From Chiloscyllium plagiosum (taxonomy: Eukaryota): 40,449 bases of DNA. The stretch is from the NCBI RefSeq assembly GCF_004010195.1, contig NC_057758.1, forward strand, positions 3,634,850 to 3,675,298, read 5' to 3'. Below, piece after piece: positions 6,336 through 40,449 of the stretch; positions within the stretch are counted from its first letter, which is position 1, and each line of letters begins with the position of its first letter. The notes below the pieces were generated by a model that searched no databases, was not told the DNA's origin, and was given only the letters and a program-made list of their open reading frames with translations. The position numbers were made by a program, and so were the translations under genes.

Positions 6336-7496
6336 ATGTTGTCGGTAGACAGTCATGCTTACAGAATGCTATGTCACCGAAAATGACCAACTGTTACTTG
6401 ATTAGTCTGTGAGAAATGTGTCTCAGTTCAGTTTTATATAATCTACAACAAGGTGCTAACATCAGTTTATTTCTTCGATGCATATCAATAAACTAACCGT
6501 CATTGTTTCTCAGTTAAAACTAATTGAAGTTAACAATAATTAAATTAGCAGAATAAGCATTCAATTGTTACACATTATAGTTACCAAAGTAAGCAGCTGA
6601 TTTATGTTCATAACTGTGAACACACCATCTCGCAGTCTGCAAATCTATTGAAAATGGCTTTTTAAAACGCCTGAATTCAGAGACAGTGCTACCGAATTTC
6701 ACTATTACTTCCAGAACATTGACCATCTCTTATATCTGTCTAGAGAGCTGGACCGAGACAGTTATCCACACAACAGCTCGCGACATACCAGTTTGAGACG
6801 TGCCTGAAAAACAAGGAAATACATGGTGCAGTTCTCAGTGCTAGTCCAAATATAATTTAACATTAATAAAAATGAGGTGTGAGCAACCATGGATCGCAAA
6901 TTCATCTATGTGAATGACTTCTGGTGAATGACCTAAACTGTGTTATTCTATAACTTTGCTCCAATGCTGAATGGAAGTGTTATAAAGATGATTGACTCGA
7001 GCAGCACATTGCGCTCTATATTGAATCCCTCAACTGTTACGGCCAGAATGCAGTGAAAATAGTGCAGACATCACAATAGGGTATTCGACCAGATGAGTCA
7101 GGTTATTGCATCCAAGATCAAATTATAAAGTGTAAAGGCTTCGAAAATGTACAATTATTTTCATTTGTATGTATATTGTTTGCTAATATGCACTCACAAT
7201 TATTGTCATATCAGGAACTTAACTGTGTCTGAATATTCTACAGTCCAGATTCGCGTATATTTTCATTGCTTGTATATTAAAATGTGTGGCGTAGTGCATG
7301 GGAATGTCAGTATCCATTGGGTGGTCGAAAAGTAGGCCATGCCTCTGAAAGACTGACAGATTGTTTCAAACAGCACATCCCTTCCACAGCATATGGCAAG
7401 CAAACTACTAAATGGACCAAACGAACCTGCACTGACAAAACTCAAAACTGAGTGTCCAACATTGGTCATGTTTGGACAATGTTTATGACCTTAATT

Positions 7497-7850
7497 TATT
7501 GATGGGAAGCTGGCATCGCTCGTAAGGCATTATACATTGCCATTCCCTCGTTTCCCTTGCGAAAGTGTTAGTGAGATGACTTCTTGAACAGTTGTTTTCC
7601 GTTTTCGATAAGAATACTTACAATGTGATCACGGAGAATCGTAAAACATTGGCACTGAATGAACGCAGACATATTTACAAATAGTGCTGGTGAACGACTT
7701 TTGAAAAGAACTTGCACATGCTGCTATCTGCCAACCTTGTCATCTCGATGCCCATCAAGGTGAGAGGCGCTGTGTGTGGAGTCTTGGTGAGTTTCTGCAG
7801 GACACCATGCACCTTGTTGCTTCTGAACGTCGGTGGATGACGGTTATCTG
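7497..7850 (-). mobile_element. Old LINE 3' fragment, CR1/L2 group (duplicate at about 32700-33055)
   Basis: Resembles the reverse complement of a LINE 3' end I recall from shark genomes (cattgccattccct..cccttg..gtgag..cttcttgaac; cttggtgagtttctgcag). Highly decayed. Confidence 0.4.
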
Positions 7851-7859
7851 TTCTCTCCA

Positions 7860-9670
7860 GACAAATGGGACAGATATAGAAAAAGGGCAGATGCAGAATA
7901 ATTCTCACACTGCGTTGCCCCATCATCTCTCCACAACACGGACAGAATGAGTTTCAAGACAGAATAAAGGTAGGCTTCCATTAGTCTTTTCTAAATTCTA
8001 GGCCATATTCAGCATGACCTAAGATATTCAATACATCTTGCACACAATTGCAAATGCAATCGCTGATGTTGAAATACAGGACGGAGGTAGGTACAAGTTA
8101 AAGATTCCACTACGGTAGCAACTTCCAAATGTGCATGCCACATTCAACATGATGTAACTTATTATCTAAATCAGAATTACTGTGACTGCACAACACACTC
8201 ACAGGACAGGTAAACAATGGGATAAGATACAATGGAAGCAACATCTAACCTGTCCTGCATCAAAAGATTCCAGTCGAAGTTAATCACAGCTTCAGACTCA
8301 GATCAATACTCACTCCTGCGCTGTCCTCAGCGAAAAATGAAGGATAGTTATAACATGAGTTAAATACAGAATAATACTCATTTTATAATGTTACCATCAA
8401 ACAGCCTTAGGGCAGGTACAGAAACGGTTAGAAACAAGTTAACTTTGCATCTACACTGTTGTCTACCAAACAGTGCCAAATCAGTGACAGCACACAATTA
8501 ATTACGAATTAAATCTCCTTCCCTTTTAAAGTAATACTAAATGGAAAATAAGCCGTCTTTATCATTGTGACCATGAAACACTCCAGAATAGGTACACTGC
8601 AGGTTTAGATGCAGCATAAAGCTATTTCTGCACTCGCACCTTTCAAGATCCCAGGCTATGTTCAATACTAAATTAAATAATCATTGAATTACACCACACA
8701 CTGTCACAGTCAAACATTACCAATTCATCTCTTTGTACACTTTCAAAATAAAACTAAAATTCCTTTAACATTTTCCGAGCTAAACTCTCCCACGGTAGAC
8801 ACAGAAAGTAATTAGATATTGTGTGATGACTGTTCTCTTACTTGAAACTGGACATAAAATTAAGTTCAATAAAACAAAGAAAGAACCTCAGATGCTCTTA
8901 GTCAGACACAAAAATAAAGATTGCTGGAAAAACTCGGCAGATCTGGATGTATATGTTGTGAGAAACCAGATTTAAAGTTTTGGATCTGGTGACCCTTCTT
9001 TCAGATCTTTAAATTTGCCTTCTCGCCACAGATGCTGAAAGACTGCTCTGGACTGTCCCCATCAAATATTCCAGGAACAGCCCTTCAGTATTTTGCATTA
9101 CGAGTAAAGTTCATTCAATGCAGGCACTTCTCAAATAATAAGGCCATGTTCAGTATGGGGTTCGGTATTGATTAAATCACTGCCACGTTTTTCCTGAAAA
9201 CAGTCCCATGACAACATGGGGTTTGAACCAGAATGTCACACTTATCAAACTTGCAGCCCACGTAAAACATGGCTTATATTCTCAGTAAATCACTCCACAC
9301 CTGTCCAGCAGAATAATTGAAGGATACAAATAACACAGTTTTAGATACAGATTAATACATTCCTCCATTCTGTCCCCATTAAAAAAAATCTGATGGCAGG
9401 AATGGATAAGCTTAATTCCCAATTGAATTTTAATCTTCACTGGCCGTTGCCAAATAGAACACGTTCAGCGTGGTTAGATATTAATGAAGATGCTCCCCAC
9501 ATTGTCCTCCTCAAAAAAATCTCAGAACAGAGACAGCACCGGTTTAGAGACAGAGTTACAGATATAAAGCGAACATTCCTCTGCACCGTGCCCATCAAAC
9601 ACTATCAGGAAACGGATAGGACGTGGTGAGATACAGTAAAAACGAGCATCTCACTGCCTCCAGTGAAAGA
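7860..9670. repeat. Degenerate ~70-bp tandem satellite (duplicate at about 33070-34880)
   Basis: Recurring variants of CAGGACAGGTACAGCAxxGGTTAGATACAGAxTAAAGCTCCCTCTACACTGTCCCCATCAAACACTC, e.g. near 8200, 8400, 8580, 9050, 9340 and 9580. Confidence 0.75.
8880..9048. mobile_element. Short Penelope-derived non-autonomous repeat with decayed hammerhead-like motif (duplicate at about 34095-34260)
   Basis: gctggaaaaactcggcagatctgg..gtgacccttctttcaga..cacagatgctg. The - strand reads ctgaaagaagggtcaccagatccaaaac. Confidence 0.5.
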
Positions 9671-9849
9671 CTAAAGGATCTGACTTGGAAAAATATTAGG
9701 TCCAGTTTCATAGATCAATGCATTACTGTGGTTTTCACGATTACTATTTTATTTTTAAAAAATCCGTAATTCACAGACATAAAAAATTCGAATCCATACA
9801 TAGTCACAAAAGCAGTTCAGTTCTGTATTGTGACATATCAAGGAAGCAA

Positions 9850-9978
9850 GAGAAAGTGAGGACTGCAGATGCTGCAGATCAGATTGAAAGTGTGTGGTGT
9901 TGGGAAAGCTAATCAAGTGGCGACCAGGGAGCAAGAGATCAACGTTTTGAACACACGCTCTTCATCATGGATGAGGCT
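9850..9978 (-). mobile_element. Penelope-derived short repeat with decayed hammerhead-like motif (duplicate at about 35060-35190)
   Basis: Same family as 17680-17891 and 20250-20378. The - strand reads atgatgaagagcgtgtgttcaaaacgttga. Confidence 0.6.
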
Positions 9979-10099
9979 TTCAGGGAAGCAAACGAAATTT
10001 GAAGTTTGAATGCACCGAAGAAAGGGCATCACAGACTCATGCAAATGTATATTTGGATACTACAGGAGTCTGACGACTGAACACACCTCAATTTACTCG

Positions 10100-10600
10100 G
10101 CAGAAAGAGCTCAGGTAGTGGTCTTTTCCAACTGTGCCTAGTGGCAGCTATCCCGATCTTTAGTGTGTCCCGCAGCACGTACTCCTGGACGTGAAAATGA
10201 GCCAATCTGCAACACTCTGTGGAGTTCAACTCCTTGTTCTGGAAGACGAACAACTTTCGGGCAGAACAAAGACCGTCGGTCACCGAGTTGTTAGTCCTCC
10301 AGACGGAGCTGTCTCCGTGTGCCCATTGGAGAACACAGACCTGTCTCAAAGTGCTGCTCTGGACATACCGCGAGAAAGAAATTAACACTGCGTCTGCGTC
10401 TTACTCCAGACTTCCTTTGCAGACGCACTTTCCATCAGGAGATGTGAGACAAAATCTACCCTCTTGCAATTATTTCGAGGGCAACGTGCGGTGGTGCACA
10501 CCGACCAGATGCACATCAGGAATTTCACAGGTTTGGTTCAGAGCTTCTAACAACCAGACAAGCGATGTCTTGGTGCTCCTCCAGCTGGACAGGTATTTCG
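10100..10600 (-). mobile_element. Tx1-like (L1 clade) retrotransposon ORF2 C-terminus, decayed
   Basis: Minus-strand fragments HQDIA, CTTARCPRNNCK..VSHLL (zinc-knuckle region) and WRTNNSVTDGLCSARKLFVFQNKELNSTECCRLAHFHVQEYVLRDTLKIG. Confidence 0.8.
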
Positions 10601-12009
10601 TCTCGGAATACTAGTCTGATCGACATAATGCTCCAAAATTAATATATATCCTGTCGTGTCAAGACGGATTCTGTGAGGTGGATTCAGAATGTGATATAAC
10701 TAACCATTTCATCAGATCTACTTTACTTTATGCTCTCATCCTTCTGAATATCCTCCAACATGTGACTCAACCAGCTTGTCCCATTTCTGTACCCACACAT
10801 TTCAGCATTTTAAAAAGTATAGCAAATGTCTAGTTTTATGTAGAATACTTGCCCTGTATCTTTCCCTGGCTTTAGTGCTGTTCACCCTGAACATCAGGTC
10901 CCACCATTAAGAAGCTCTGAACCAAACAAAAATGTGGCTCGTGCTTTCTATCACTTACAGATGTCCGTGTGGTCCTCAGTGATGGACAAGGGGTTTCAGC
11001 AGCTTTGAGAGACGTATTTGGAACTTCTTCTATGCCTGTTTGCTGCTCGCCTGTATTGGTCGTTCTCTGCTGATCATGTGATCAGTAACATGTGGAATCC
11101 CCTCAATTGTCATTGAATCAGACCATGCTTCGAACTTGTCGATGAATGTTCTGACATCATCCTTGAACTGAAAAGTTAGTGCAGACGTTGTCATTGCGTT
11201 TTAAGTGCTGTGGATATTCAGGAAGACCAGAGGCTATCGTGGCCCACTGTAGAAACATCACGGTGACTGTATTTAAGCATCTGAATCTGCAAAATGAGCA
11301 AATAATGGAGGAGAAGTGGCAGAAAGGGGAATATGTGTAAAATGAATAAGGAGCCTCAATCAGATCAGCCATCATCTAATGAATGGCAGAGCAGAATTGA
11401 AGGCCCACTCTTGCAAGTTATTTAGATACTTCTGTTTATTACAAGCCAATTCCCCTCCTCTCCTCGTGTCGAATACTGGTGCGGAGGAAGTCACCTCCCT
11501 CTCTTCAAACACAAAGTGATCCTGCGGACTTACTTGCCTCCTAAATTTTCTGTGTAACAGACGCGAGTAATTGAATGACTGCTTCGAGTTTCTATGCAAC
11601 AGCTTTGTGAAAAAAGATGCCCAAATCCTTTTCCCGAGGAACAGGCTTGGATAACTATGTGACCTCCTTCTGTTTCTGTGGAATAGAATTGAGGGACTGA
11701 ATGTCCTCTTCACATTTCTTGCAGCTTCTATTAACTGAAATCCTATCTCTTATTTCTGTAAAACATCCTCAATATCGGAATGATAGATTCTTGTTTCTTA
11801 TTTTCTGAGTTGAGCAAACAAACAGGCTGATTGGCTCTGCTGTGATATGATAAAATTCAGAAACTGAATAGCTCTCTCTTTCTATTGTGTACCAGTCTTG
11901 AAAGGCTGATTGGCCTAATTCGGCCCCGGTAACAGTCTCGTGAGGCAGAATGGACTCCTCCTATTACTGTGTTGCTGGCTTGAGAAATTAACTGGTCTCC
12001 TCCAATTGG

Positions 12010-12275
12010 ACCTTCATAGAGATATGAAGCATGGAAATAAAATTCAAAGGAAAAGAAACTCGCTGCTGACCAGACGTCCTAAATTAATCTTGTCCTATTT
12101 GCCAGCATTTGGGCCTTACCTCAAGCGTCCCTGTGTATATTCCCATCCAAATGTCTTTTAAATGTTTTGTTTCGCTCCTTCTCTCTCACATTAAACCTAA
12201 TGCATCTAGTTTTTGACTCCCGTCCCCAGGGGCAAAACATTGAATAGTTACCGTATTTATGCCCTTCACGATTGC
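12010..12275 (-). mobile_element. CR1 LINE 3' fragment (duplicate at about 37330-37590)
   Basis: catagagat.., atttgccagcatttgg, ccatccaaatgtcttttaaatgtt and ttaaacctaatgcatctagtt are the reverse complement of a CR1 3' end. Confidence 0.7.
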
Positions 12276-12419
12276 ACAAATTTGTATAAGGCCAAACATT
12301 AGCCAACGATGCGCCTGGGAAAATAGAGAGGCATACACATCCATTCTTGATAGCTCAAACCCTTCAACCTGTGTAAATCTGGAGAAATGTAGTAAACTCC
12401 CCATGTTCTGCTTACGGAG

Positions 12420-12612
12420 TTTGAGAGGCTAAACACTCCTTCTGTCCCTCTGTAACAGGGTCTCGAGGCTGATGACTTCCTCCACACCCCGTGTAACATG
12501 ATCTTGAAGTTGGTTGGGCTTTTTCGGTCCCTCTGTAACTGGCTGTGGAGGCCGAATCGCCTCCTCCTGCACCACTTTGACACTCTCAAGAGTTCAATGG
12601 CCTCCTCCTTTT
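12420..12612. repeat. Degenerate ~40-bp tandem repeat (GAGGCTGAATGGCCTCCTCCTGTxCCTxTGTAACAG type)
   Basis: Several imperfect units. Related arrays lie at about 11820-11975 and 14280-14430, and at the matching positions in copy B. Confidence 0.55.
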
Positions 12613-12615
12613 TAA

Positions 12616-13255
12616 AGTCGTAGAGTTACACAGCAGGGAAACAGAGCCTTCTGTCCAGCGCGTCGATCCGAATCAAACATCATTAACTACTCTTATCCCT
12701 TTAACCAGCATTTGGCCCTTGCTTCTCTGAATCCATCCAGATGAATTTTAAATTTTGCAACTAAAACAACCGTCACCACTTCGCCTGAAAGCTGTTTTTC
12801 TTTCCTCCGTACACGGGCCACTCTCCATGTGAGAAAGATGCCCTTTTGGTCCCTTTTGCACCTTTCCCCTGTCAGCGTAAACTGAGTTCCTCCATTTCTG
12901 GTCGCCCCTACCCAGGGAAGGATCTTGGCTGATCAACGTATCCATGCTCCTCATGATGTCATGAACCTCTGTAAAGTTACCCCCAGAGTCCCCAAGGGTC
13001 CGACGCTTCAGGGAAATTATACCCAACTTGTTCATCCTCTCCCGATAGCTCAAACAATCCAAACCTGGCATCATTCATGTATTTTTTTCTGAACAGTTTG
13101 AAGCTTAACAATATCTTTCCTATGGAATTAAATGTAGTATTCCAAATGTCGCCTAACCAGTACCCTGCAGTTCCACAAAATGACTTTCTTCTCTGATACT
13201 TAAAACTCTGACCAATGAAAGCAATGTACCAAAAGCCTTCGTCAGTAACCTGTCT
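12616..13255 (-). mobile_element. CR1 LINE ORF2 3' part and tail (duplicate at about 37935-38575)
   Basis: ORF 12748-13074: MMPGLDCLSYRERMNKLGIISLKRRTL..FTEVHDIMRSMD. Confidence 0.8.
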
Positions 13256-13689
13256 GCTTCAGACCTCACAATTAAGAAAAGGTGAACCTTCATTCCGAGT
13301 CGACACGATGGCTGATTGGAAACATTGCTGCCTCACAGTCCATCAGAATCCCCTGCAACAACATGCCCACTACCGATGTCAGCTTTACTGGTCTATTTTT
13401 CCATAGGTTTTCGTCACAACTTTCTGACGTTAGACACCTTTCTGTCTTCCTTCATCTCTCCTGTGGATATATAAAATACGAAAAACTTAGCATGGGACCG
13501 AGCATTCACTTCACTAGCTTCCCACAAGCTTCTGGCATACCCATGATCAGTCTCTGAGCATTCATTCACCTTTGTGCATATTGAGATATCCATTACCACC
13601 TTCACTGTAAAATGAAAACTTTCAAAAGGTCACTATTTATTTTTCCCCTAGTACCAGAGCCTTATCCACTGTAAGCATTAAAGCATATT

Positions 13690-14180
13690 AATCGATGAAC
13701 ATCTCATTCATCCCTGCGGCCCCACACATAGAAGAACCTGTGGATATTTTCGGTGACCTCGTTATTCTCTCGTTGTTCTTTTGTCTTTTATGTACTTACG
13801 AAATGTCTTTGTATTCTCCTGAAAACTCGTTGCCAAAGTTATCTCATGTCTGCTTTTTGCCCTTTTGATTTCTCTTAAAAGTATTGCCCAACTGCTGTTA
13901 TACTCCACTAGGGATTCCCTCGATCCCAACTGACTGTACCTATAATAAGTTTCCTTCTTTTTCTGACTGGAGCTTCAATCTCTGTTTTCATTCAGCATTC
14001 TCTACACTTACCATTTCTGTCCTTCACACTGACGGGAATACACGGTCACTCGACTCTCGTTATGGTATTTTTGAACACACCGAACTTTGAAACGATCCTT
14101 TTTGCCCGCAAATCGTTTTTCCGAGTCAGAATTTCCTTTTGTTTGCATAATATGTTCAAAATTCGCCACATTCTAGATTA
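13690..14180 (-). mobile_element. CR1 LINE ORF2 internal fragment (duplicate at about 39010-39500)
   Basis: Copy B ORF 39225-39491 reads GKSDWENDL..FGAFKNKITRVERQCVPV..ECWMSTEIEAPVRKRRK, typical of the region between endonuclease and RT. Confidence 0.75.
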
Positions 14181-15355
14181 GACTTCAAAAGGTAATATAA
14201 GAATAAGAAGCATCTAAAACTATTTTTTAAAAAACCTAATAGTTAATGTTTAACAGTCTCAATATGTAGACGATGTCATCCTGTTTCCTTGTGAAAGGCT
14301 CGACAGGATGAATGGCCCCATCTCTCACGCTGCAAAAGGCTCAAGAGGCTGAATGGCTTCCTCCTGTCCCTCTGTTACATAATAGATACACTGAATGGCC
14401 TCTTGCTGTTAATATGTAGCAGGATTGATAGTCTAATGTCCACCTTCAATCCATCATTAGCACATTATTCCATGGTATCCGATGGATGATGACCATCGAT
14501 TCAACTGTATTTGATGGAGGCCCCTCCCTTCTCCTATACATAAACACACACAATAAAACTACTCCAGGTATCATCTCAGTAGCAACTCGGACAGCTGTAA
14601 CAATACTTCTCTGTATATTGATAAATTTTGCAAAATAAGGCAACATTCCAGAGCTCCACTTCGTCAAGTGATAATAGACAACATTGGGTTGAATGTTGTC
14701 TTCTTAACCCACTGTCACTGGCAGATGGGAACACAATTGATTCCCTGTGTTCCCGAACAGCAGTCTGAATGCTCTGAATAATGTTTCAAGGTTATGAATG
14801 AATTTAATAACACACTAATTAAAAGCTGGAGCAGCATTACACAGAGACAATGTGAAATGAATATCGTTGCCCGGCGTTCTGGTCTGCAACAATTCCCCGA
14901 AGAAGTCATTTTATGTAGCTGGGGCATTATTTTATCCCTGTCTCCTTGTATAAACAGAGTGGACCAGTTAGAAATATGCAGTCTTCTGACACTGTTTCTG
15001 TAAGCAAGGAAGAAAGATGAAAACGTTTCAAAGATTTATGGTCCATCCCATAGCAACCCTCAACATTTCGGTCAGACTGTGTAAATGTTCCCTTTCATTG
15101 TGATACGAAAAGTGATATAAGGAAGGTGTTAACTGAAACTGTTTGTTCAGAGACTGTTATTAATGCAAGTCTCCACAGATTCTAATTAAGCCAGTGGAGG
15201 CTTTATATCTGTAAATGATAAATGAGCTCCGTTCGATATTTAATTAAATAGTATGAGAGGAAGCATCACCCATAGCACTACTAGGATTCAGCAACTCCGG
15301 AGAAATTTAGCGAAGAGATCAGAATCTGAGAACATTCAAATGGAATGATCAAAAA

Positions 15356-15536
15356 ATGGATGATAATTTGAGAATGATAGACTGGAATGTTACAGCAATG
15401 GACAGGAGTTTAGCTGGGAGAATTTGGTATCTTTCTAAATACTATCATCGGTTGCCTTTATCACGTCGGATCGAACTTGTACTATTCATTATTCAATACA
15501 TTTATTATCCCATCCTGGCTATCGTTGGTGTCCCTC
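15356..15536 (+). CDS. Exon 1 of a class A GPCR, GPR139/GPR142-like (N-terminus and first half of TM1)
   Basis: ATG in a strong context (aaaATGG) opens MDDNLRMIDWNVTAMDRSLAGRIWYLSKYYHRLPLSRRIELVLFIIQYIYYPILAIVGVP. It contains an NVT sequon and a hydrophobic TM1 start, and ends at a canonical donor C|GTAAGT (GT at 15537, phase 1). In-frame ATGs at 15374 and 15398 are alternative starts. Confidence 0.85.
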
Positions 15537-15924
15537 GTAAGTCTCATTGTCCAAATATTGTTTTGATAAACTATGTGTGACTGTTTGATTGTACTTCTCA
15601 TGCTTCCACACCTTGTTACAGTTATTGTTCCTGCTGAGACACTGAGTCCAGAGATTCACCGTGCAAACCACTATTATATGCATCAGTGAACTTGTTCATT
15701 CATTCTCTCCATCTTTGCTTCAGGCAGTGCCCGTCGTAGGTCTCTCTGTGTTGACATACCCTCAATTCCATCTGTGAAACACAATATATTGTATCACTGC
15801 CCTTGTTAGTTAATGTTGAGAACTGATAATTCACTGTCTTGTGTTTTAGATGCAAGTTTCAATTCCTTCCTCTGACTTTATCCCATCTCTGGACAGTAAA
15901 TGAGATTGAAACGGGCGATTCACA

Positions 15925-17045
15925 ATTAGAACAAAGAATAATGAACAATACAGTTCTTCCATATTAATGCTGTTTCAATTACAAGATGTGTATCCCTCTA
16001 TTTCCTTCTTATCCATGTATTTGTCCAGATACTTCTTGAATGCTGATCTTTGTTTCTTGCTTCCACTACTTCCTCTGGCAGTGCATTCCAGGCATAACAT
16101 CTTTTGTGTGAAAAACTTGGCACGCACATCTAACGTATGGGCGGCATGGTGGCACAGTGGTTACCAATGGGCGGCATGGTGGCACAGTGCTTCGCACTGC
16201 TGCCTCACAGCGCCTGAGACGCGGGTTCAATTCCTGCCTCAGGCGACTGACTGTGTGGGCCTGTTTCCACACTGTAATGTAATATAATGTAAAAAAGAAA
16301 TGTAATTGCCCCACATATCTGTATGTTGAACCTGTGTCCCCAAGTAAATGACCACGCCACACTGCGAAAAAGCCTCATATTTTCGAATCTATCCATGCTA
16401 TTCACAATTTTTTAAACTTCCATCAGTTTCCCCTTTCAACCACCTGCATTCCAATGTAAGGAAACGCAGCCTGCCCAAACTTTATTCAAACATATAATCC
16501 CCCCAACAAACAACGTAATAATATTTTATGTAACCTCTCCAAAACATTCATGTCCTTCTGGTAATGTGTGTTCAGAACTGTACACAATATTCCAAATGTG
16601 CATTTTAAAATTAATGTTTTAAAAAGCTGCAGCATAACTTGACTATTGATATAATTCATGTCCCTTACATTGTCGCCAACTATGCCAAATGCCTTATTTT
16701 TACGATCTTAGCGATTTGCATTCCCAACCTCAGTGATCCGTGGACTTGCCCACACAGATCACCCGGCATTTCATTTTTTGCTCGACAATGATCACCTGTA
16801 CATCTCCTAACAAAATGTATCACGTCATACTTTTCCAATTAAACCTTCATCTACCATTTGTCTGCCCATGTCTTCAAACGCTGTACCTCCTGCTTGATCC
16901 GCTAACAATTCTGCTCACTTTTCACATTTCCATCAATTGTTCCATTGCCAAAAACTAATCTTAACAACAATGTTTTTCTGCAAATCATTTATGTCAAAGA
17001 TGAACAGCACAGATTCCAGCACTGGCCCTTGTAATGATACCTATA
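15925..17045 (-). mobile_element. Old intronic CR1 LINE relic, interrupted by a SINE
   Basis: ttgtccagatacttcttgaatg, ctggcagtgcattccaggca, cagaactgtacacaatattccaaatgtg, caaatcatttatgt..aacagca..cccagcactg. Confidence 0.65.
16137..16292 (+). mobile_element. tRNA-derived SINE (HE1-like), internally deleted, with duplicated 5' end
   Basis: A-box TGGCACAGTGG, B-box GGTTCAATTCC, gcactgctgcctcacagcgcc, then a direct jump to the tail gcctgtttccacactgtaatgtaat. Confidence 0.85.
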
Positions 17046-17544
17046 TCTGTGGTAATCCCTTTGACCATGAGTTGATTTCTGACACCATGCCCTACCATTT
17101 CCTTATTCTATTTCCAGAAACATCCAGAACATACCTGACTGGCTCATCCAAACTTCTATTTAAACTTGCAGCAGGGAAATATATTCTCATTGATTCGAAT
17201 AATCTGTAACTGACACTGCCAGCTTCAAATGTGTAGAAATAAATTCTGATTCGAAGCTCCATCCGAACTGAAACCAGAAATCCCCTGTATCGGTCATTCC
17301 TGTGAAAACGTCTCTGAATTGTTATTAGATCCGGCAATACACTAATGTTAATGTGCTTAATGACATCGTCCTATCTGTCCATTAAATGTCCAGCCATCTC
17401 TCTCTTTTGAAAACCCCAAGTCCTGCTAGTTCATCTTTAAACTAATTTCCTTCATGCACGTACTTTCTCAAACAATGACCCTCACCTATACCACGGTTCC
17501 CAACTTAGTCACACAGACTCACTCGCTTTTTTCTCTCTTGATCT

Positions 17545-17625
17545 GTCACGCAGACACAGACACATGCGCGCACGCACACGCTCACACACACACTCATACT
17601 GACACAATCTCACACGTCCACACAC
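17545..17625. repeat. Imperfect (CA)n microsatellite
   Basis: cacgcagacacagacacatgcgcgcacgcacacgctcacacacacactc... Confidence 0.7.
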
Positions 17626-17679
17626 CTATCCGCACGTTGAACTCATACAATGGAGATTTGGAGAAATCAATGTAGTGGA

Positions 17680-17891
17680 TAAATTTAGGACTGCAGATGC
17701 TGCTGTTGGGCAGAGTCAAAGAGTGTGGCGCTGAGAAAGCAGAGCTGGTAAAGCAGCATCTGAGGTATAAGAAAATCGATGTTTCAGGGACAAGACGGTC
17801 ATGATGAAGGGCTTCTGCCTGAAATGCCGATTCTCTTGCTCATCAGATACTGCCTGAGGACTTGTGCTTTCCCAGCGCCACACTCTTCGAC
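17680..17891. mobile_element. Fold-back (inverted-repeat) Penelope-derived short element
   Basis: 17715-17741 and 17865-17891 are reverse complements at 25/27. A decayed hammerhead-like motif, atgatgaagggcttctgcctgaaatgcc, starts at 17801. Confidence 0.75.
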
Positions 17892-18839
17892 ATTTCGACA
17901 TAAGTTTATAGGAACCACATTTATTTTCACTCACAACATAGGATGCAACTTCCCCATGATATGCTGTTATGTACTGCTTGTAGTACCAATATGCAGGCTT
18001 TTTTTTAAATGCTCGCCATACCGGTCAGATAGTTCAGCTTTCTGAATAATGAACTAGCATTGTCCTTGCCGCACTCCATATTGGCCTGTCGTCTTGTACC
18101 TCTTTACTGTGTCTCGGTTGGTCCAGATTCAGATGTTGAGAGAGCGAAGATCTGGCGATACCTTTATTCAATGTTCTCAATCATGTGACTTGGACCGTCT
18201 CAGATCTGAATCCTTCAGTTAGTACCACTCCTCTTGTCTTTTTTTCCCTATTTCTACCATATGTTCTCAGGAAAGAAAGTATGTTTCTGTTTTCAATACG
18301 AATCTTCCAGTCCCTCTGTACCTTTTCTGGCCTTGGTATATTGCTCTTGAGATTATCAAGTATCGGCCTTGTGAACCTCAGAAACAATAAAATGGAATGT
18401 TTCGGGCTGTTGCTTACTTTCTACTGTATCCCTTGTGGTGCTGTATTTTGGACAAGGGTTTGATCAGGTTTGACTCACGTCTTTGAAATGCTGTCTGTAT
18501 CTGTGCACTCAGTGCCAATGTGTGCCACTCTGAGCTGATCATGCGTTCAGTAACTCAGGTATGCTAGGAGGAAGCTTATCGTGAATTACCGGACAGAACA
18601 AAATATCTAACTTGCAGCTGAGGGGATTTGACTGACTCCTGTTATTGAATATTTAGAGGAGTTGCTGGAGGTGGTTTACTGGATGTTGTTCTGTGACATG
18701 TTTCAGACATTCAGGGAGACCTGAGGATTTCGTGCTCCAACTCTTGATGGAGCATGAGTACTGTAGTGCATCATCAAGGTCTGTAACATGAGCAACAAAT
18801 GGAGCCGAGTCTGCAGGGAGTGGAAACTCTGAAATCGCA

Positions 18840-19930: not shown

Positions 19931-19945
19931 CTTCCTATAATATCG

Positions 19946-20378: not shown

Positions 20379-20879
20379 TCCTCTGTTCCTTTCCGACTTA
20401 TTCATATAAATCACAAAAAATGAACATTACACCAATTATTCTGGCGCACCATTAGTCACAAGCATCCATTCCAAAACGTATGCCTTCACCACATGCTCTG
20501 AATACTACCTTCAATCCAATTTTGTATTCAAATATCTTTTTATCGCTGTATTCCATGCACAGTCTTAACAGAACTTAACAGTCTACCATGACAAACCCTG
20601 TTGAACGTCCTACAGAAATGTGAAAATGCAATTACCACAGGTGTGTGCATGTGTGGGCGCGCGTGACTGTGTTTTGGAGTGTGGGTGAGATAGGGAAGTA
20701 ACTTGATGTATCCATCCCAGGATTTCCAAGAACACGTCCCCAACCTACGCTTAACCCAGGAGCAGTGTGTGAGGGATCCAAGGAGCTGGTCACAGAGCGT
20801 TGTCACCTCCTGCAACACGACTTGCAGCTTCACACCAGCGGAAGGATAGTGCTAGAGTCACAGTTTCATTCAGTTTCGA

Positions 20880-22795: not shown

Positions 22796-22899
22796 AATCC
22801 ATGAAGTAAAATTTTATTTCACATTCCTTTCTAGATTGCTCTCTGCTCTCTCGCATTCAGCTCCGCCCTGAGTCAAGTGAACCCCTCTGACACCTGTCT

Positions 22900-32168: not shown

Positions 32169-32668
32169 NNNNNNNNNNNNNNNNNNNNNNNNNNNNNNNN
32201 NNNNNNNNNNNNNNNNNNNNNNNNNNNNNNNNNNNNNNNNNNNNNNNNNNNNNNNNNNNNNNNNNNNNNNNNNNNNNNNNNNNNNNNNNNNNNNNNNNNN
32301 NNNNNNNNNNNNNNNNNNNNNNNNNNNNNNNNNNNNNNNNNNNNNNNNNNNNNNNNNNNNNNNNNNNNNNNNNNNNNNNNNNNNNNNNNNNNNNNNNNNN
32401 NNNNNNNNNNNNNNNNNNNNNNNNNNNNNNNNNNNNNNNNNNNNNNNNNNNNNNNNNNNNNNNNNNNNNNNNNNNNNNNNNNNNNNNNNNNNNNNNNNNN
32501 NNNNNNNNNNNNNNNNNNNNNNNNNNNNNNNNNNNNNNNNNNNNNNNNNNNNNNNNNNNNNNNNNNNNNNNNNNNNNNNNNNNNNNNNNNNNNNNNNNNN
32601 NNNNNNNNNNNNNNNNNNNNNNNNNNNNNNNNNNNNNNNNNNNNNNNNNNNNNNNNNNNNNNNNNNNN
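32169..32668. other. Assembly gap (500 N)
   Basis: Exactly 500 N. A round number suggests a scaffolding placeholder of unknown true size. Confidence 0.98.
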
Positions 32669-35600
32669 CATGTTTGGACAATGTGTTTGAGCATAAATTA
32701 TTGATGGGAAGCAGGCATCGCTCGTAAGGCATTATACATTGTTTCCCTTGAGAAAGTGTTAGTGAGATGACTTCTTGAACAGTTGTTTTCCGTTTTGGAT
32801 AAGAATACTTACAATGTGATCAGTAAGAATCCTAAAACATTGGCACTGAATGAACGCAGACATATTTACAAATAGTGCTGGTGAACGGCTTTTGAAAAGA
32901 ACTTGCACATGCTGTTGTTCCCACGTATATGCCAACCTTGTCATCTCGATGCCCATCAAGGTGAGAGATGCTGTGTGTGGAGTCTTGGTGAATTTCTGCA
33001 GGACACTATGCTGACAGTGCACCTTGTTGCTTCTGCACGTCGGTGGATGACGGTTATCTGTACTTATCCAGACAAATGGGACAGATACAGCAAAAGGGCA
33101 GATGCAGAATAATTCTCACACTGCGTTGCCCCCATCATCTCTCCACAACACGGACAGAATGGGTTTCAAGACAGAATAAAGGTAGGCTTCCATTAGTCTT
33201 TTCTAAATTCAAGGCCATGTTCAGCATGACGTAAGATATTCAACACATCTTGCACACACTGTCAACATCAATCACTGATGGTGAAATACAGGACAGAGGT
33301 AGATACAAGTTAAAGATTCCACTACGGTAGCAACTTCCAAATTTGCATGCCACATTCAACATGATGTATCTTATTATCTAAATCAGAATTACTCTGCCTG
33401 CACAAAACACTCACAGGACAGGTAAGCAATGGGATAAGATACAATGGAAGCACCATCTAAACTGTCCTGCATCAGAAGATTCCAGTCGAAGTTAATCACA
33501 GCATCAGACTCAGATGAAAACTCACTCCTGCGCTGTCCTCAGCGAAAAATGAAGGATAGTTATAACATGAGTTAAATACAGAATAATGCTCATTTTATAA
33601 TGTTACCATCAAACAGCCTTAGGGCAGGTACAGAAACGGTTAGAAACAAGTTAACTTTGCATCTCCGCTGTTGTCTACCAAACAGTGCCAACTCAGTGAC
33701 AGCACACAATTAGTTATGAATTAAATCCCCTTCCCTTTTATAGTAATACTAAATGGAAAATAAGCCGTCTTTATCATTGTGACCATGAAACACTCCAGAA
33801 TAGGAACACCGCAGGTTTAGATGCACCATAAAGCTATTTCTGCACTCGCACCTTTCAAGTTCCCAGGCTATGTTCAATAATAAATTAATTGATCACTGAA
33901 TTACACCACACACTGTCACAATCAAACATTCTCAATATATCTCTCTGTACACTTTCAAAATAAAACGAAAATTCCTTTAACATTTTCCGAGTTAAACTCT
34001 CCCACGATAGACGCAGAAAGTAATTAGATATTGTGCGGTGCCTGTTCTCTGACTTGAAACTGCAAATAAAATTAAAGTTCAATAAAAAAAAGAAAGAAAT
34101 GCAGATGCTCTTATGCAGGCACAAAAATAGACATTGCTGGAAAAGCTCGGCAGATCTGGATGTATATGGTGTGAGAAACCAAATTTAAAGTTTTACACCT
34201 GGTGACCCTTCTTTCAGATCTTTAAATTTGCCTTCTCTCCACAGATGCTGAAAGACTACTCTGGACTGTCCCCATCAAATATTCCAGGAACAGTACTTCA
34301 GTATTTTGCATTACGAGTAAAGATCATTCAATGCAGGCACTTCTCAAATAATAAGGCCATGTTCAGTATGGGGTTCGGTATTGATTAAATCACTGCCATG
34401 TTTTCACTAAAAGCAGTCCCATGACAACTTGGGGTTTTATCCAGAATGTCACACTTATCAAATTTGCAGCCCACGTTAAACATGGGTTATATTCTCAGTA
34501 AATCACTCCACACCTGTCCAGCAGAATCATTGAAGGACAGAAATAACACAGGTTTAGATACAGATTAATACATTCCTTCATTCTGGCCCCATAAAAAAAA
34601 TCCGATGGCAGGGATCCATAAGGTTAATTCCCAATTGAATTTTAATCTTCACTGGCCGTTGCCAAATAGACCACGTTCAGCGTGGTTTAGATATTAATGA
34701 AGATGCTCCCCACACTATCCTCCTCAAAAAATCCCAGGACAGAGACAGCACCGATTTAGAGACAGAGTTACAGATATATAGCGAACCTTCCTCTGCACCG
34801 TCCCCATCAAACAGTATCAGGAAAGGGATAGCACGAGGTGAGATACAGTTACATCGAGCATCCAACTGTCTCCAGTGAAAGACTGAAGGATCTGAGTTGG
34901 AGAAATATTAGGTCCAGCTTCATAGATCAATGTATTACTGTGGTTTTCACAATTACTATTTTATTTCAAAAAATTACGTAATTCACTTACATAAAAAATC
35001 GAATCCGTACATAGTCACAAAAGCAGTTCAGTTCTGTATGGTGACATGTCAAGGGAAGCAAGAGAAAGTGAGGGCTGCTGATGCTGCAGATCAGATTGAA
35101 AGTTTGTGGTGCTGGGAAAGCTGATCAAATGGCGACCAGGGAGCAAGAAATCAACGTTTTGAACACAAGCTCTTCATCATGGATGAGGCTTTCAGGGAAG
35201 CAAACGAACTTGGGATTTTGAATGCACCTAAGAAAGGGCATCACAGACTCATGCAAATGTATATTTGGATGTATTGAGATACTACAGGAGTCTTACGACT
35301 GAACAGACTTCAATTTACTTCGGCAGAAAGAGCTCAGGCAGTGGTCTTTTCCAATTGTGCCTAGTGGCAGATATCCCGATATTTAGTGTCTCCCGCAGCA
35401 CGTACTCCTGGACGTGAAAATGAGCCAGTCTGCAACACTCTGTGGAGTTCAACTCCTTGTTCTGGAAGACGAACAACTTTCGGGCAGAGCAAAGACCGTC
35501 GGTCACCGAGTTGTTAGTCCTCCAGACGGAGCTGTCTCCTTGTGCCCATTGGAGAACAAACCAATGAGCACACAGACCTATCTCACAGTGCTGCTCTGGA

Positions 35601-38600
35601 CAAACCGCGAGAAAGAAATAAACACTGCGTTCTTACTCCAGGCTTCCTTTGCAGAGGCACTTTCCAGCAGGAGATATGAGACAAAATCTACCCCCTTGCA
35701 ATTATTTCGAGGGCAACGTGCGGTGGTGCAGACCGACCAGATGCACATCAGGAATTTCACAGGTCGTGAGCTTCTCACCACCAGACAAGTGATGTCTTGG
35801 TGCTCCTCCAGCTGGACAGGTATTTTGTCTCGGAATACAGGTTAATGCATTTGAGCATTCAGCACAATGTCCCATTCCGGGCAAATCGTCAGGTTCACTT
35901 TGGCAGTACACAAGTCTGATCTACATAGTGCTCCAAAATTAACATATATCCTGTCGGGGTTTGTGGTGTCAAGACGGATTCTGTGAGGTGGATTCAGAAT
36001 GTGATAGAACTAACCATTTCAGCAGATATACTTTACTTTATGCTCTCATTCTTCTGAATATACTCCAACATGTGACTCACCCAGCTTATCCCATTTCTGT
36101 ACCCACACATTTCAGCATTTTAAAAAATAGAGCAAATGTCTAGTTTTAACTAGAATACTTGCCCTTTATCTTTCCCTGGCCTTAGTGTTGTTACCCTTAG
36201 AACATCAGGTCCCACCATTAAGAAGCTCTGAACCAACCAAAAATGTTGCTCGTGCTTTCTATCACTTACAGATGTCCGTGTGGTCCTCAGTGATGGACAA
36301 GGGGTTTCAGCAGCTTTGAGACACATATTTGGAACTTATTCTATGCCTGTTTGCTGCTCGCCTGCATTGGTCGTTCTCTGCTGATCATGTGATCAGTAAC
36401 ATGTGGAATCCTCTCAATTGTCATTGAATCAGACCGTGCTTCGAATTTGTAGATGAATATTCTGACATCATTCTTGAATTGAAAAGTTAGTGCAGATGTT
36501 GCCATTGCGTTTTAAGATGCTGTGGATATTCAGTAAGACCAGGGGCTTTCGTGACCCACTGTGGAAACATCACGGTGACTGTATTCAAGCATCGGAATCT
36601 GCAAAATGAGCAAAGAATGGAACAGAAGCGGCAGAAAGGGGAATATGTGTAAAATGAATAAGGAGCCTCAATCAGATCAGCCATCGTCGAATGAATGGCA
36701 GAGCAGAATTGAATCTCCACTCTTGAAACGTATTCTGATACTTCTGTTTTTTACAAGCCAATTCCCCTTCTCTCCTCGTGTCGAATACTGGTGCGGAGGG
36801 AGTCACCTCCCTCTCTTGAAAGACAAAGTGATCCTGCGGCCTTACTCACCTCCTAAATTTTCTGTGTAACAGTCGCGAGCAATTGAATGACTGCTTCCAG
36901 TTCCTATTCAACAGTTTTGTGAAAAAAAATGCCCAAATCCTTTTCCCGAGTAACAGGCTTGGATAACTCTGTGACCTCCTTCTGTTTCTGTGGAATGGAA
37001 TTGAGGGACTGAATGTCCTCTTCACATTTCTTGCAGCTTATACTAACTGAAATCCTATCTCCTATTTCTGTTAAACAACCTCAATATCGGAATGATAGAT
37101 TTTTGTTTCTTATTTTCTGAGTTCCTGAGCAAGCAAACCGGCCGATTGGCTCGTTTTTGATATAATAAAATCCAGAAACTGAATGGCCCTGTCTTTCTAT
37201 TGTCTACCAGTCTTGAAAGGCTGAATGGCCTAATTCGGCCCCTTTAACAGACTCGTGAGGCAGAATGGACTCCTCCTATTACTGTGTTGCTGGCTTGAGA
37301 AATTAACTAGTCTCCTCCAATTGGACCTTAATAGAGATATGAAGCATGGAAATAAAATTCAAAGAAAAAGAAACTCCCTGCTGACCAGACGTCCTAAATT
37401 AATCTTGTCCTATTTGCCAGCATTTGGGCCTTACCTCAAGCGTTCCTGTGTATATTCCCATCCAAATGTCTTTTAAATGTTTTGTTTCACTCCTTCTCTC
37501 TCACATTAAACCTAATGCATCTAGTTTTTGACTCCCATCCCCAGGGGCAAAACATTGACCAGTTACCGTATTTATGCCCTTCACGATTGGACACATTTGT
37601 GTAAGGCCAAAGATTAGCCAACGACGCGCCTGGGAAAATAGCTAAGTCGTATACATCCACTCTTGATAGCTCAAACGCTCCAACCTGTGTAAAACGTCTC
37701 GAGAAATTTAGCGAACTCCTCATATTCTGCTTACGGAGTTTGAGAGGCTAAACGCTGCTTCTGTCCCTCTGTAACAGGGCCTCGAGGATGATGACTTCCT
37801 CCACTCCCTGTGTAACATGATCTTGAAGTTGGTTGGGCTTTTGCTGTCCCTCTGTAACTGGCTGTGGAGGCCGAATCGCCTCCTCCTGCACTACTTTGAT
37901 ACTCTCAATAATTCAATTGCCTCCTCCTTTTTGAAGTCATAGAGTTACACAGCAGGGAAACAGAGCCTTCTGTCCAACCCGTCGATCCGAATCAAACATC
38001 ATTAACTACTCTTATCCCTTTTACCAGTATTTGGCCCTTGCTTCTCTGAATCCATCCAGATGAATTTAAATTTTGCAACGAATACAACCGTCACCACTTC
38101 GCCTGGAAGCTGGTTTTCTTTCCTCCGTACACGGATCACCCTCCATGTGAGAAAGTTGCCCTTTTGGTCCCTTTTATATCTTTCCCCTGTCAACGTAAAC
38201 TTAGTTCCTCCATTTCTGGTCTCCCCTACCCAGGTAAATACCTTGGCTGATCAACGTATCCATGCTCCTCATGATGTCATGAACCTCTGTAAAGTTACCC
38301 CCAGAGTCCCCAAGGGTCCGACGCTCCAGGGAAATTATACCCAACCTGTTCAGCCACTCCCGATAACTCAAACACTCCAAACCTGGCATCATTCATGCAT
38401 TTTTTTCTGAACCCTTTGAAGCTTAACAATATCTTTCCTATGCAAATAAATGTAGTATTCCAAAAGTCGCCGAACCAGTACCCTGCAGTTCCACAAAATG
38501 ACTTTCTTCTCTGATACTCAAAACTCTGACCAATGAAAGCAATGTACCAAAAGCCTTCTTCAATACCCTGTCTGCATCAGACCTCACCATGAAGAAACGG

Positions 38601-40449
38601 TGAACCTTCATTCCAAGTCGACACGATTGCCGATTGGAAACATTGCTGCCTCACAGTCCATCAGAATCCCCTGCAACAACATGCCCACTACGGATGTCAG
38701 CTTTACTGGTCTATTTTTCCATAGGTTTTCCTCACAACTTTCTGACATTAGTACCTTCCTGTCATCCTTCACCTCTCCTGTGGATATACAATATACGAAA
38801 AACTTAGCATGGGACCGAGCATTCACTTCACTAGCTTCCCATAAGCTTCTGGGATGCCCATGATCAGTCTCTAAGCATTGATTTACCTTTGTGCATATTG
38901 AGATATCCATTACCACCTTCGCTGTAATATGAAAACTTCCAAAAGGTCACTATATATTTTTCCCCTAGTTCCAGAGCCTTATCCACAGTAAGCATTAAAG
39001 CAAATTAATCGATTAGCATCTCACTCATCCCTGCGGCCGCACACATAGAAGAATCTGTGGATATTTTCGGGGATCTCGTCACACTCTCGTTGCTCTTTTG
39101 ACTTTTATGTACTTTCAAAATGTCTTTGTATTCTCCTGAAAACTCGTTGCCAAAGTTATCTCATGTCTGCTTTTTGCCCTTTTGATTTCTCTTATGAGTA
39201 TCATCCTACTGCCGTTATACTCCATTAGGGATTCCCTCGATCCCAACTGACTGTACCTATACTATGTTTCCTTCTTTTTCTGACCGGAGCTTCAATTTCT
39301 GTACTCATCCAGCATTCTCTACACTTACCATTTCTGTCCTTCACACTGACGGGAACACACTGTCTCTCGACTCTAGTTATCTTATTTTTGAACGCACCGA
39401 ACTTTCCAACGATCCTTTTTCCCCGCAAATCGTTTTCCCAGTCAGATTTTCCAATTGATTGCATAATATGTTCAAAATTCGTCACGTTCAAGATTAGAAC
39501 TTCAAAGGTAATATAAGAATAAGAAGCATCTAAAACTATTTTCTAAAAAAACTAATAGTTAATATTTAACAGGCTTAAAATGTAGACGATGTCACCCTGT
39601 TTCCTTGTGAAACGCTCAACAGGATTAATGGCCCCATCTCTCCCGCTGCAACAGGCTCAAGAGGCTGAATGGCCTCCTCCTGTCGCTCTGTTACATACTA
39701 GATAGACTGAATGGCCTCTTGTTGTTAGTATGTAGCAGGCTTGATAGTCTAATGTCCGCCTTCAGTCCATCTGTAACACATTGTCCCACAGTATCCCATG
39801 GATGATGACTATCTGTTCAACTGTATTTGATGGAGGCCCCTCCCTTCTCATATACATAAACACACATAATAAAAAATAGTCCAGTATCATCTCAGTAGCA
39901 ACGGCTGTACAGCTGTAACAATACTTCTCTGAATATTGACGATACATTTTGCAAAATAAGGCAACATTCCAGCGCTCCACTTCGTCAAATGATTTTAGGC
40001 AACATTGGGTTGAATGTTGTCTTCTTAGCCCACTGTCACTGGCAGATGGGAACACAATTGATTCCCTGTGTTCCCGAAGAGCAGTCTGAATGCTCTGAAT
40101 AACGTTTCAAAGTTATGAATGAATTTAATAACACATTAATTAAAACTTGGAGCAGCATTAAAGGGAGACAATGTGGAATGAATATCGTTGCCCGCCGTTG
40201 TGGTCTGCAACAATTCCCCGAAGAAGTCATTTTATGCAGCTGGTGCGTTATTTTATCCCTGTCTCCTTGTATAAACAGAGTGGACCAGTTAGAAATATGC
40301 AGTTTTCTGACACTGTTTCTGTAAGCAAGGAAGAAAGATGAAAACGTTTCAAAGATTTATGGTCCATCCCATAGCAACCCTCAACATTTCGGTCAGACTG
40401 TGTCAATGTTCCCTTTCATTGTGATATGAAAAGTGATATAAGGAAGGTG
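32669..40449 (+). repeat. Segmental duplication, copy B (predicted upstream region of the next GPCR paralog)
   Basis: Direct diverged copy of 7467-15128, offset about 25.2-25.3 kb. Truncated by the N gap on the left and by the window edge on the right. Confidence 0.97.
35325..35830 (-). mobile_element. Tx1-like ORF2 C-terminus, copy in duplicate B
   Basis: ORFs 35578-35781 (CTTARCPRNNCKGVDFVSYLLLES) and 35315-35506 (SARKLFVFQNKELNSTECCRLAH). Confidence 0.8.

What the first reader, a model, noticed from the sequence alone, without database searches (positions are those of the whole stretch)
7467..40449. Tandem array of GPR139-like orphan receptors; next paralog predicted just past the window
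Seen: the 7.7 kb directly upstream of the GPCR is repeated in the same orientation about 25 kb downstream, and the window ends at the position equivalent to 15128, 228 bp before the ATG. Established: GPR139 and GPR142 are single-copy aromatic-amino-acid-responsive receptors in mammals. Inference: a second exon 1 should begin near window position 40680, and the locus is a birth-and-death cluster of diverged receptors copied as whole units of 25 kb or more, promoter and repeats included. Such clusters are typical of chemosensory or immune receptor repertoires, so this may be a little-studied elasmobranch chemoreceptor family. Function cannot be read from the sequence.
Basis: partly seen in the sequence, partly recalled or inferred. 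Interest (0 to 1): 0.75.

Follow-up and report, generated by a model that had tools for sequence, protein, structure and literature searches.

The report
Duplicated shark orphan-receptor repertoire gene
A duplicated stretch beside a shark receptor gene points to a very large family of cell-surface receptors, seen here only in sharks, rays and chimaeras, whose outer faces vary like those of smell or immune sensors, but what they detect and where they are made is untested.

Summary
The duplication is real: 7467-15128 recurs at 32669-40449, same strand, 93% identical over 7,635 columns. That is too diverged for two haplotypes, and it is not one transposon. A two-exon, 362-aa class A GPCR follows copy 1. 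The last 200 bp before the window ends are the best-conserved part of the pair, which favours a second promoter. The second gene itself could not be checked. The '25 kb unit' is not measured, because copy 2 starts at the edge of a 500-N gap.

The receptor is not a GPR139 orthologue: a close paralog is about 28% identical, and one of four ligand residues is lost. It belongs to a chondrichthyan clade with 1,968 database hits (all 120 listed are sharks), separate from two single-copy fish/amphibian relatives. Within one species, outer loops diverge 2-4 times more than inner loops; in single-copy orthologues the ratio is 0.5-1.0.

Best reading: a birth-and-death sensor repertoire with many ligands and one output, probably chemosensory; an immune role is the main rival. 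No expression or ligand evidence. Ten literature searches found no description of it; two earlier scan notes flagged the same family.

The parts
7467..15128 (+). Copy 1 of the duplicated upstream segment (non-coding, a patchwork of old repeat fragments)
   Evidence: 0 of 35 stop-free frames of 68 aa or more in 7266-15035 hit Pfam; no terminal direct or inverted repeats bound it
32669..40449 (+). Copy 2, 93.0% identical, cut on the left by the gap and on the right by the window end
32169..32668 (.). 500-N assembly gap; true size unknown, so the repeat period is unknown
14929..15128 (+). Putative proximal promoter, the most conserved 200 bp of the duplication; TATA-like boxes at 14949 and 15116
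   Evidence: 3 mismatches vs about 14 expected, lowest of 38 non-overlapping bins, binomial p 3.5e-4 uncorrected; motifs
40250..40449 (+). Equivalent putative promoter of copy 2; TATA-like boxes at 40270 and 40437; projected ATG near 40677, outside the window
15356..15536 (+). Exon 1: N-terminus and most of TM1 (60 codons + 1 nt), donor GTAAGT follows
15537..23815 (+). 8.3-kb phase-1 intron at position 1.49 of TM1
   Evidence: five of the 28 database models in alignment A1 switch to unrelated N-termini at this same point
23816..24723 (+). Exon 2: end of TM1 to C-terminus of the class A GPCR; carries Thr in place of Asn1.50
24939..24956 (+). Two ATTAAA hexamers, candidate polyadenylation signals
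   Evidence: motif scan only

Best explanation
The window is part of a tandem cluster of a chondrichthyan-specific class A GPCR family from the GPR139/GPR142/FMRFamide-receptor-like lineage. An old segmental duplication, most likely by unequal crossing-over, copied a gene with its upstream DNA and promoter. SHOWN: the duplicate, the gene, the family size and the variation pattern. INFERRED: the family works as a many-inputs, one-output sensor repertoire. The G-protein-facing loops stay nearly fixed among paralogs, so all signal the same way (Gq/Gi-type by analogy with GPR139, not tested). Deep-pocket residues differ between subfamilies and set the ligand class. Hypervariable rim positions (N-terminus, outer TM1, ECL1-3, 6.58, 7.32) tune specificity within a subfamily. 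The most likely ligands are external water-borne or dietary peptides, amino-acid derivatives or similar charged molecules met at sensory or other surface epithelia. The duplication and family parts deserve about 0.9; the score given is for the whole statement including the chemosensory role.
For: Duplication: 93% and even along its length; promoter-proximal 200 bp most conserved. Family: 1,968 hits among 2,928 candidates; all 120 listed are sharks (Heterodontus 58, Rhincodon 28, Heptranchias 13, Stegostoma 10, others 11). 111 clusters at E<1e-30 remain after 50% clustering; 9 of 10 mid-range representatives looked up are named sharks, rays or chimaera, 1 is unnamed. 16 of 28 whale shark hits lie on one 94.4-Mb sequence, and 7 of 9 looked up have accessions within XP_048456451-482. 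Tree: 24 chondrichthyan-type rows form one side of a branch (89/84), apart from single-copy groups A (100/99) and C (100/100) (66 rows, SH-aLRT 89). Outer/inner loop divergence ratio: 4.3 in 20 whale shark paralogs and 2.4 in 25 horn shark paralogs, against 0.54 in 22 group C and 0.96 in 53 group A orthologues. Entropy ECL 1.54 vs ICL 0.79 bits, p 0.001, 117 sequences. Pocket positions near-invariant in the close subfamily are fully mixed in 33 distant members, while W6.48 (30 of 33), R3.50 (33 of 33) and Y7.53 (32 of 33) persist. Model-feature neighbours include FMRFamide-receptor-like and Srw-bearing clusters; that lineage has expanded in tandem in a snail (PMC11589774, passages).
Against: No expression, cell-type or ligand evidence was obtained. 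No coding DNA of paralogs was at hand, so dN/dS was not computed and relaxed constraint on the loops cannot be told from positive selection. The same pattern fits immune or irritant receptors. Catshark work names V2R as the main olfactory family and found no GPCR among the 50 most specific brain-plus-olfactory genes (PMC11979771, passages), though V2Rs were absent from that list too. Clade support is moderate (89/84, not starred), true GPR139/GPR142 were not in the trees, and the sister group is unresolved. This copy has Thr at 1.50 (0 of 91 others) and Arg at 1.51 and may be impaired. The second gene is predicted, not seen.
Confidence: 0.5

Rival explanations
1. Immune or irritant-sensing repertoire, working like formyl-peptide receptors or MRGPRs: same cluster and same evolution, but expressed on leukocytes, mast-like cells or nociceptors, or diversified by pathogens that bind the outer loops.
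For: Hypervariable outer surface over a conserved core fits a host-pathogen race equally well. One Chiloscyllium model cluster joins this GPCR to a RING-type protein, a weak hint of TRIM-like neighbours. FPR and MRGPR biology is recalled.
Against: No immune gene or expression evidence here. The pocket also differs between subfamilies, which suits ligand range better than escape from binding alone.
Confidence: 0.25
2. Largely neutral copy-number drift: a repeat-rich region that duplicates easily, with purifying selection on the fold and merely relaxed outer loops; many copies redundant or dying.
For: No dN/dS available. This copy has lost Asn1.50. Many database models are partial.
Against: TM and inner loops differ by only about 0.08 among whale shark paralogs while outer loops differ by 0.37. 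Invariant and hypervariable sites alternate (R6.59 in 115 of 117 next to 6.58 at 3.4 bits). Single-copy orthologues keep their outer loops (group C 0.19). The promoter end is conserved between copies. This copy has 7 departures at conserved sites, against a median of 5 and an upper quartile of 7.
Confidence: 0.12
3. Receptors for a diversified set of endogenous or mate-derived peptides, as the related MIP/sex-peptide receptors are; chondrichthyans fertilise internally.
For: GPR139/142 share an origin with MIP/sex-peptide, FMRFamide, proctolin and myosuppressin receptors (PMC8514136, passages). The close subfamily has a conserved charged pocket (D2.57, R2.61, H3.28, E5.39, R6.59, E7.36).
Against: No matching ligand expansion was looked for or is known to me. 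Endogenous peptide receptors are normally few and conserved, as groups A and C are.
Confidence: 0.08
4. Assembly artefact: copy 2 is an uncollapsed haplotype or misplaced contig of the same locus.
For: Copy 2 starts exactly at a scaffold gap; no read depth could be examined.
Against: 7% divergence with 28 indels spread evenly over 7.7 kb is far above ordinary vertebrate heterozygosity (recalled, under about 1-2%). A misjoin would change adjacency, not paralogy.
Confidence: 0.04
5. The 7.7-kb segment is a single transposable element inserted twice, and its place before exon 1 is chance.
For: It contains short repeat-derived fragments.
Against: 0 of 35 frames hit Pfam; no bounding LTR or TIR; homology runs to within 228 bp of the ATG and is highest there.
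Confidence: 0.01

Closest known systems
GPR139 (and GPR142), class A receptors activated by L-Trp and L-Phe (PMC5430874 and PMC6367278, abstracts)
   Same: Best solved-structure match for the family profile (E 1.1e-11) and for paralog P0007 (E 1.2e-10). Y/F, H and W stand at three of the four ligand positions in this subfamily.
   Different: About 28% identity (my count on the alignment); window exon 2 alone does not retrieve GPR139 at E 10; N7x38 is F in 111 of 117; tens of paralogs per species instead of one conserved gene; pocket not conserved across the family.
Fish/coelacanth orphan relatives of GPR139/142 named GPR210A and GPR210B (PMC6504862, passages and supplement search)
   Same: Non-mammalian members of the same lineage. 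My single-copy groups A (coelacanth, sharks, fishes, amphibians, reptiles), B (P0265) and C (amphibians, sturgeon) are the nearest non-chondrichthyan relatives found, 23-29% identical.
   Different: The paper's text has no occurrence of 'shark' or 'cartilag' and describes no expansion. I could not match its Ensembl ids to groups A, B or C. Sharks keep their own group A gene (P0299, P0302, P0306), so the expansion is a separate lineage.
Vertebrate chemoreceptor repertoires (OR, TAAR, ORA/V1R, V2R); catshark survey PMC6368271 (abstract and Methods)
   Same: Works like them on sequence evidence: many clustered paralogs, lineage-specific growth, conserved inner face, variable pocket and outer face.
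   Different: Different ancestry. That survey used only known families as queries, so it would not have reported this family. Sensory expression is untested.
Invertebrate FMRFamide-receptor-like / Srw expansions (Lymnaea, about 450 genes in tandem groups, PMC11589774 passages; nematode srw as chemoreceptors is recalled)
   Same: Same broad lineage by model features and Pfam Srw/Srx side hits; tandem birth-and-death growth.
   Different: An independent expansion in a jawed vertebrate: the vertebrate rows group apart from the three invertebrate-type rows (100/100, long branches).

Membership tests
Class A (rhodopsin-like) GPCR | 7tm_1 domain and seven-helix fold | tested here: met
   Pfam 60.3 bits vs cutoff 30.5; AF2 model of exon 2 (pLDDT 63) matches class A receptors at TM about 0.6
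Class A (rhodopsin-like) GPCR | Core motifs D2.50, C3.25 with ECL2 Cys, D/E-R-Y, P5.50, W6.48, N7.49-x-x-x-Y7.53 | tested here: met
   D, C121/C200, DRF, P, W, NTAIY present; P6.50 and P7.50 are absent in this subfamily
Class A (rhodopsin-like) GPCR | Asn1.50 | tested here: not met
   Thr in this copy; Asn in 89 of 91 relatives that cover the column
GPR139 orthologue | High sequence conservation with human GPR139 | tested here: not met
   about 28% for paralog P0007 (hand count); window exon 2 misses GPR139 at E 10; GPR139 is described as highly conserved (PMC12208981, abstract passage)
GPR139 orthologue | Trp/Phe site F3x33, H5x43, W6x48, N7x38 (PMC5430874 abstract) | tested here: not met
   Y106/F11, H115, W117, F111 of 117 close relatives (mapped by hand through); in 33 distant members H in 8 at 5x43, W in 30
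GPR139 orthologue | Single-copy gene | tested here: not met
   28 whale shark and 58 horn shark clusters at 90% among the top 120 hits
GPR139 orthologue | Activation by L-Trp/L-Phe and habenular expression | not testable with these tools
   needs assay and RNA data
GPR139/GPR142/'GPR210' lineage (broad) | GPR139 is the nearest human receptor and the family nests in this lineage in a tree | tested here: inconclusive
   nearest solved hit is GPR139 (group A likewise); no true GPR139/142 sequence was available for the trees
Birth-and-death chemoreceptor repertoire (functional class) | Many lineage-specific paralogs in clusters | tested here: met
   clustering is inferred from a shared contig and adjacent accessions in whale shark, not from coordinates
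Birth-and-death chemoreceptor repertoire (functional class) | Variable ligand face over a conserved signalling face | tested here: met
   outer/inner ratio 4.3 and 2.4 vs 0.54 and 0.96 in controls
Birth-and-death chemoreceptor repertoire (functional class) | Positive selection (dN/dS above 1) at pocket and rim sites; pseudogene fraction | not testable with these tools
   no coding DNA of paralogs and no genome
Birth-and-death chemoreceptor repertoire (functional class) | Sparse expression in sensory cells and response to external chemicals | not testable with these tools
   no read or tissue evidence obtained

The most novel reading that the evidence does not exclude
This is an undescribed class of vertebrate chemoreceptors, confined to cartilaginous fishes and larger than their known OR, TAAR, ORA and V2R families together. 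It was recruited from the GPR139/FMRFamide-receptor lineage in parallel with invertebrate expansions, and it explains how sharks detect many chemicals with a nominally tiny olfactory repertoire.
Probability: 0.3. Interest if true: 0.9.

Novelty: new variant of a known kind. Interest (0 to 1): 0.62.

Why it matters
Published surveys give the catshark 5-8 genes each in OR, ORA and TAAR (PMC6368271, abstract) and about 35 V2R or V2R-like genes (PMC11979771, passages), and the first searched only with known families. A family with at least 28-58 distinct members per shark in the top hits alone, hidden under the automatic name 'probable GPR139', could be the missing part of the shark chemical senses, or an unknown arm of chondrichthyan immunity. 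Existing organ RNA-seq can decide between these. The duplication in this window is by itself ordinary; its value is as a view of how the family grows, promoter included.

Tried and rejected
No whole genome is held, so paralogs could not be counted or mapped here and the window could not be extended. The sequencing-run search listed no RNA holder; this is no evidence either way, and the word shares of the DNA runs were not interpreted. No read evidence was obtained, so depth, splicing, expression and the Thr1.50 codon stay unverified.

Foldseek with the moderate-quality model returned generic class A hits and did not rank GPR139 in the rows shown; it is uninformative on kinship. A second exon 1 or exon 2 remnant inside the window: none by tblastn at E 1. 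Transposon reading: rejected; 126 of 134 stop-free frames were scanned, 3 had hits, 1 above cutoff (GIY-YIG, intron); the 8 left out were exon 2, two antisense frames over it and five intronic frames.

Group C or group A as the sister of the expansion: unresolved. Three internally duplicated gene models (P0001, P0002, P0106) were dropped before the counts. The careful 91-row tree did not finish and the quick one was used, then a careful 38-row tree.

Literature: searches found no description of the family (one search was for the binding site). One search was swamped by unrelated papers. I read passages in only one of the four hits. The library lacks most subscription journals, and the supplement of PMC11979771, which holds organ-level expression lists, could not be read.

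Full report
OBSERVATION. The only long repeat pair in the window is 7467-15128 against 32669-40449, on the same strand. Aligned end to end the copies are 93.0% identical over 7,635 columns, with 251 transitions, 282 transversions and 28 indels (K2P 0.073); the 15 full 500-bp bins lie between 90 and 95%. The window ends at the equivalent of 15128, so a second ATG would fall near 40677. Downstream of copy 1 lies a two-exon gene: exon 1 15356-15536, a GT-AG intron, exon 2 23816-24723, giving 362 aa without an internal stop and a 7tm_1 domain. No other GPCR remnant is in the window.

Copy 2 starts at the first base after a 500-N gap. The DNA left of copy 1 (1-7466) has no long match to the DNA left of the gap (24724-32168; one 58-bp hit). 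Either the gap hides at least 7 kb more, or the breakpoint lies inside it. The '25 kb unit' is therefore not a measurement, and adjacency rests on the scaffolding.

ARTEFACT AND TRANSPOSON TESTS. Even 7% divergence is far above normal heterozygosity (recalled), so two haplotypes are unlikely, although depth could not be checked. The segment is not one mobile element: 0 of 35 frames in it hit Pfam and no terminal repeats bound it. The last 200 bp carry 3 mismatches where about 14 are expected, the lowest of 38 bins (binomial p 3.5e-4, about 0.013 after correcting for bins; the effect is weaker at 150, 250 and 300 bp, and mismatches are somewhat clumped). Two TATA-like boxes there are kept in both copies. 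This is what selection on two working promoters would leave; local gene conversion could do the same. I put the chance of a second exon 1 at about 0.85.

THE FAMILY. Exon 2 retrieves 1,968 proteins among 2,928 candidates. All 120 listed are shark proteins, 50-84% identical, most labelled 'probable GPR139': Heterodontus 58, Rhincodon 28, Heptranchias 13, Stegostoma 10, others 11. The other 1,848 were not seen. The closest are carpet-shark proteins. After clustering at 50% there are still 111 hits below 1e-30; of 10 mid-range ones looked up, 9 are named chondrichthyans, including skates, a stingray and Callorhinchus, and 1 is unnamed. In whale shark 16 of 28 hits share one 94.4-Mb sequence and 7 of 9 looked up have accessions within 32 numbers of each other, which suggests a cluster (inference).

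IT IS NOT GPR139. GPR139 is the best solved match for the family profile and for a full-length paralog, but identity is about 28% by my count, and exon 2 alone does not find it at E 10. Of the four residues needed for agonist, Trp and Phe action (PMC5430874, abstract), mapped by hand through, three have counterparts in 117 close relatives (Y/F, H, W) and N7x38 is F in 111. In 33 distant members the pocket is mixed. Nearer than GPR139 are two apparently single-copy vertebrate groups: A (coelacanth, sharks, fishes, amphibians, reptiles) and C (amphibians, sturgeon; 21 of 25 hits). In a careful tree the 24 chondrichthyan-type rows are one side of a branch (89/84), apart from A (100/99) and C (100/100), and the order of the three is open. 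True GPR139 and GPR142 were not in the tree. Rinne et al. named fish and coelacanth relatives GPR210A/B and do not mention sharks (PMC6504862, passages and supplement search); I could not match ids.

HOW IT MOST LIKELY WORKS. Among paralogs of one species the outer loops differ far more than the inner ones: p-distance 0.37 vs 0.085 in whale shark (20 of 28 sequences used) and 0.37 vs 0.16 in horn shark (25 of 58 used). The single-copy controls show the reverse or no difference (C 0.19 vs 0.35; A 0.53 vs 0.56). Loop boundaries were set by hand. Hypervariable positions (7.32, 6.58, several in ECL2; 3.3-3.7 bits) sit beside near-invariant charged ones (D2.57, R2.61, H3.28, D3.37, K4.57, E5.39, R6.59, E7.36); those pocket positions then change between subfamilies while D/R3.49-50, W6.48 and N7.49/Y7.53 persist. 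Shown: this two-level pattern. Inferred: one shared G-protein output, ligand class set by subfamily, fine specificity set at the rim. Inferred more weakly: the ligands are external (0.5). Rivals are an immune or irritant repertoire (0.25), relaxed drift (0.12), endogenous or reproductive peptides (0.08) and artefact or transposon (0.05 together). Protein distances cannot separate relaxed from positive selection, and no expression or ligand evidence was obtained.

THIS COPY. It has Leu-Thr-Arg at 1.49-1.51, across the splice junction, where relatives have Val-Asn-hydrophobic (Asn in 89 of 91). Its total of 7 departures at conserved sites is at the upper quartile, not beyond it. It may be impaired or miscalled; the family reading does not depend on it.

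COMPARISON AND NOVELTY. It works like a chemoreceptor or FPR/MRGPR-type repertoire on sequence grounds but is a member of none of those families. The lineage shares an origin with protostome MIP, FMRFamide and proctolin receptors (PMC8514136, passages), and FMRFamide-like receptors expanded to about 450 tandem genes in a snail (PMC11589774, passages); model-feature neighbours agree. The catshark chemoreceptor survey queried only known families (PMC6368271, abstract and Methods). Nine searches aimed at the family found no description, but subscription journals and the supplement of PMC11979771 were out of reach, and RefSeq already holds the gene models. PMC12294341 (passages), PMC6367278 (abstract) and PMC12208981 (passages) add nothing on sharks. 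Two earlier scan notes reached the same family in other genomes; they are leads, not support, and the upstream 26-bp satellite one of them reports is absent here.

VERDICT. Observation confirmed with the gap caveat; interpretation partly supported. The duplication is ordinary. The family is a real, large and apparently undescribed variant of a known kind of system, with a directly testable bearing on the small known olfactory repertoire of sharks. Interest 0.62.

Noticed in passing
window 15536 and 23816-23823: Three unusual residues in a row across the splice junction (Leu1.49, Thr1.50, Arg1.51); Thr is seen in 0 of 91 relatives. Possible impaired allele or base-call error.
   Followed up: partly
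window 15356-15400; P0008, P0051, P0084, P0099, P0109: The N-terminus has one unit of a roughly 14-aa motif with an N-glycosylation sequon that is tandemly repeated several times in other paralogs, giving a stalk of variable length.
   Followed up: no
window 7467-15128 vs 32669-40449: Transitions are fewer than transversions (251 vs 282) and adjacent double mismatches are in excess (62 vs 37 expected); window CpG o/e is about 0.5. Unexplained.
   Followed up: partly
P0246, P0299-P0416 (group A): An apparently single-copy orphan GPCR in sharks, fishes, amphibians and reptiles, with no mammal or bird among the 120 of 145 hits listed; S/C at 6.48; two gene models are labelled TMEM183A isoforms, suggesting it lies next to that gene.
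   Followed up: partly
P0244, P0417-P0436 (group C): An apparently single-copy orphan GPCR found in amphibians and sturgeon only, with Asn in place of Asp2.50 in 23 of 23.
   Followed up: partly
P0169, P0295, P0296: Chiloscyllium models that join this receptor type to a RING-type protein; a probable annotation fusion with a neighbouring gene.
   Followed up: no
window 19924-20211 and 4853-5146: GIY-YIG fragment in the intron (Pfam 25.5 bits) with a related inverted piece near 4.9-5.1 kb; probably Penelope-like retroelement remains (recalled).
   Followed up: no
window 28600-30100: Degenerate purine-rich minisatellite with periods of 20 and 24 and a strong G skew downstream of the gene. A below-cutoff Pfam ETX_MTX2 match on its antisense frame (19.2 vs 22 bits) is judged a low-complexity artefact.
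   Followed up: partly
window 11500-14430 and 19533-19585: Clusters of degenerate 41-42-bp repeats, probably retroposon tails (identity recalled), and a perfect (AATCT)10 microsatellite.
   Followed up: no
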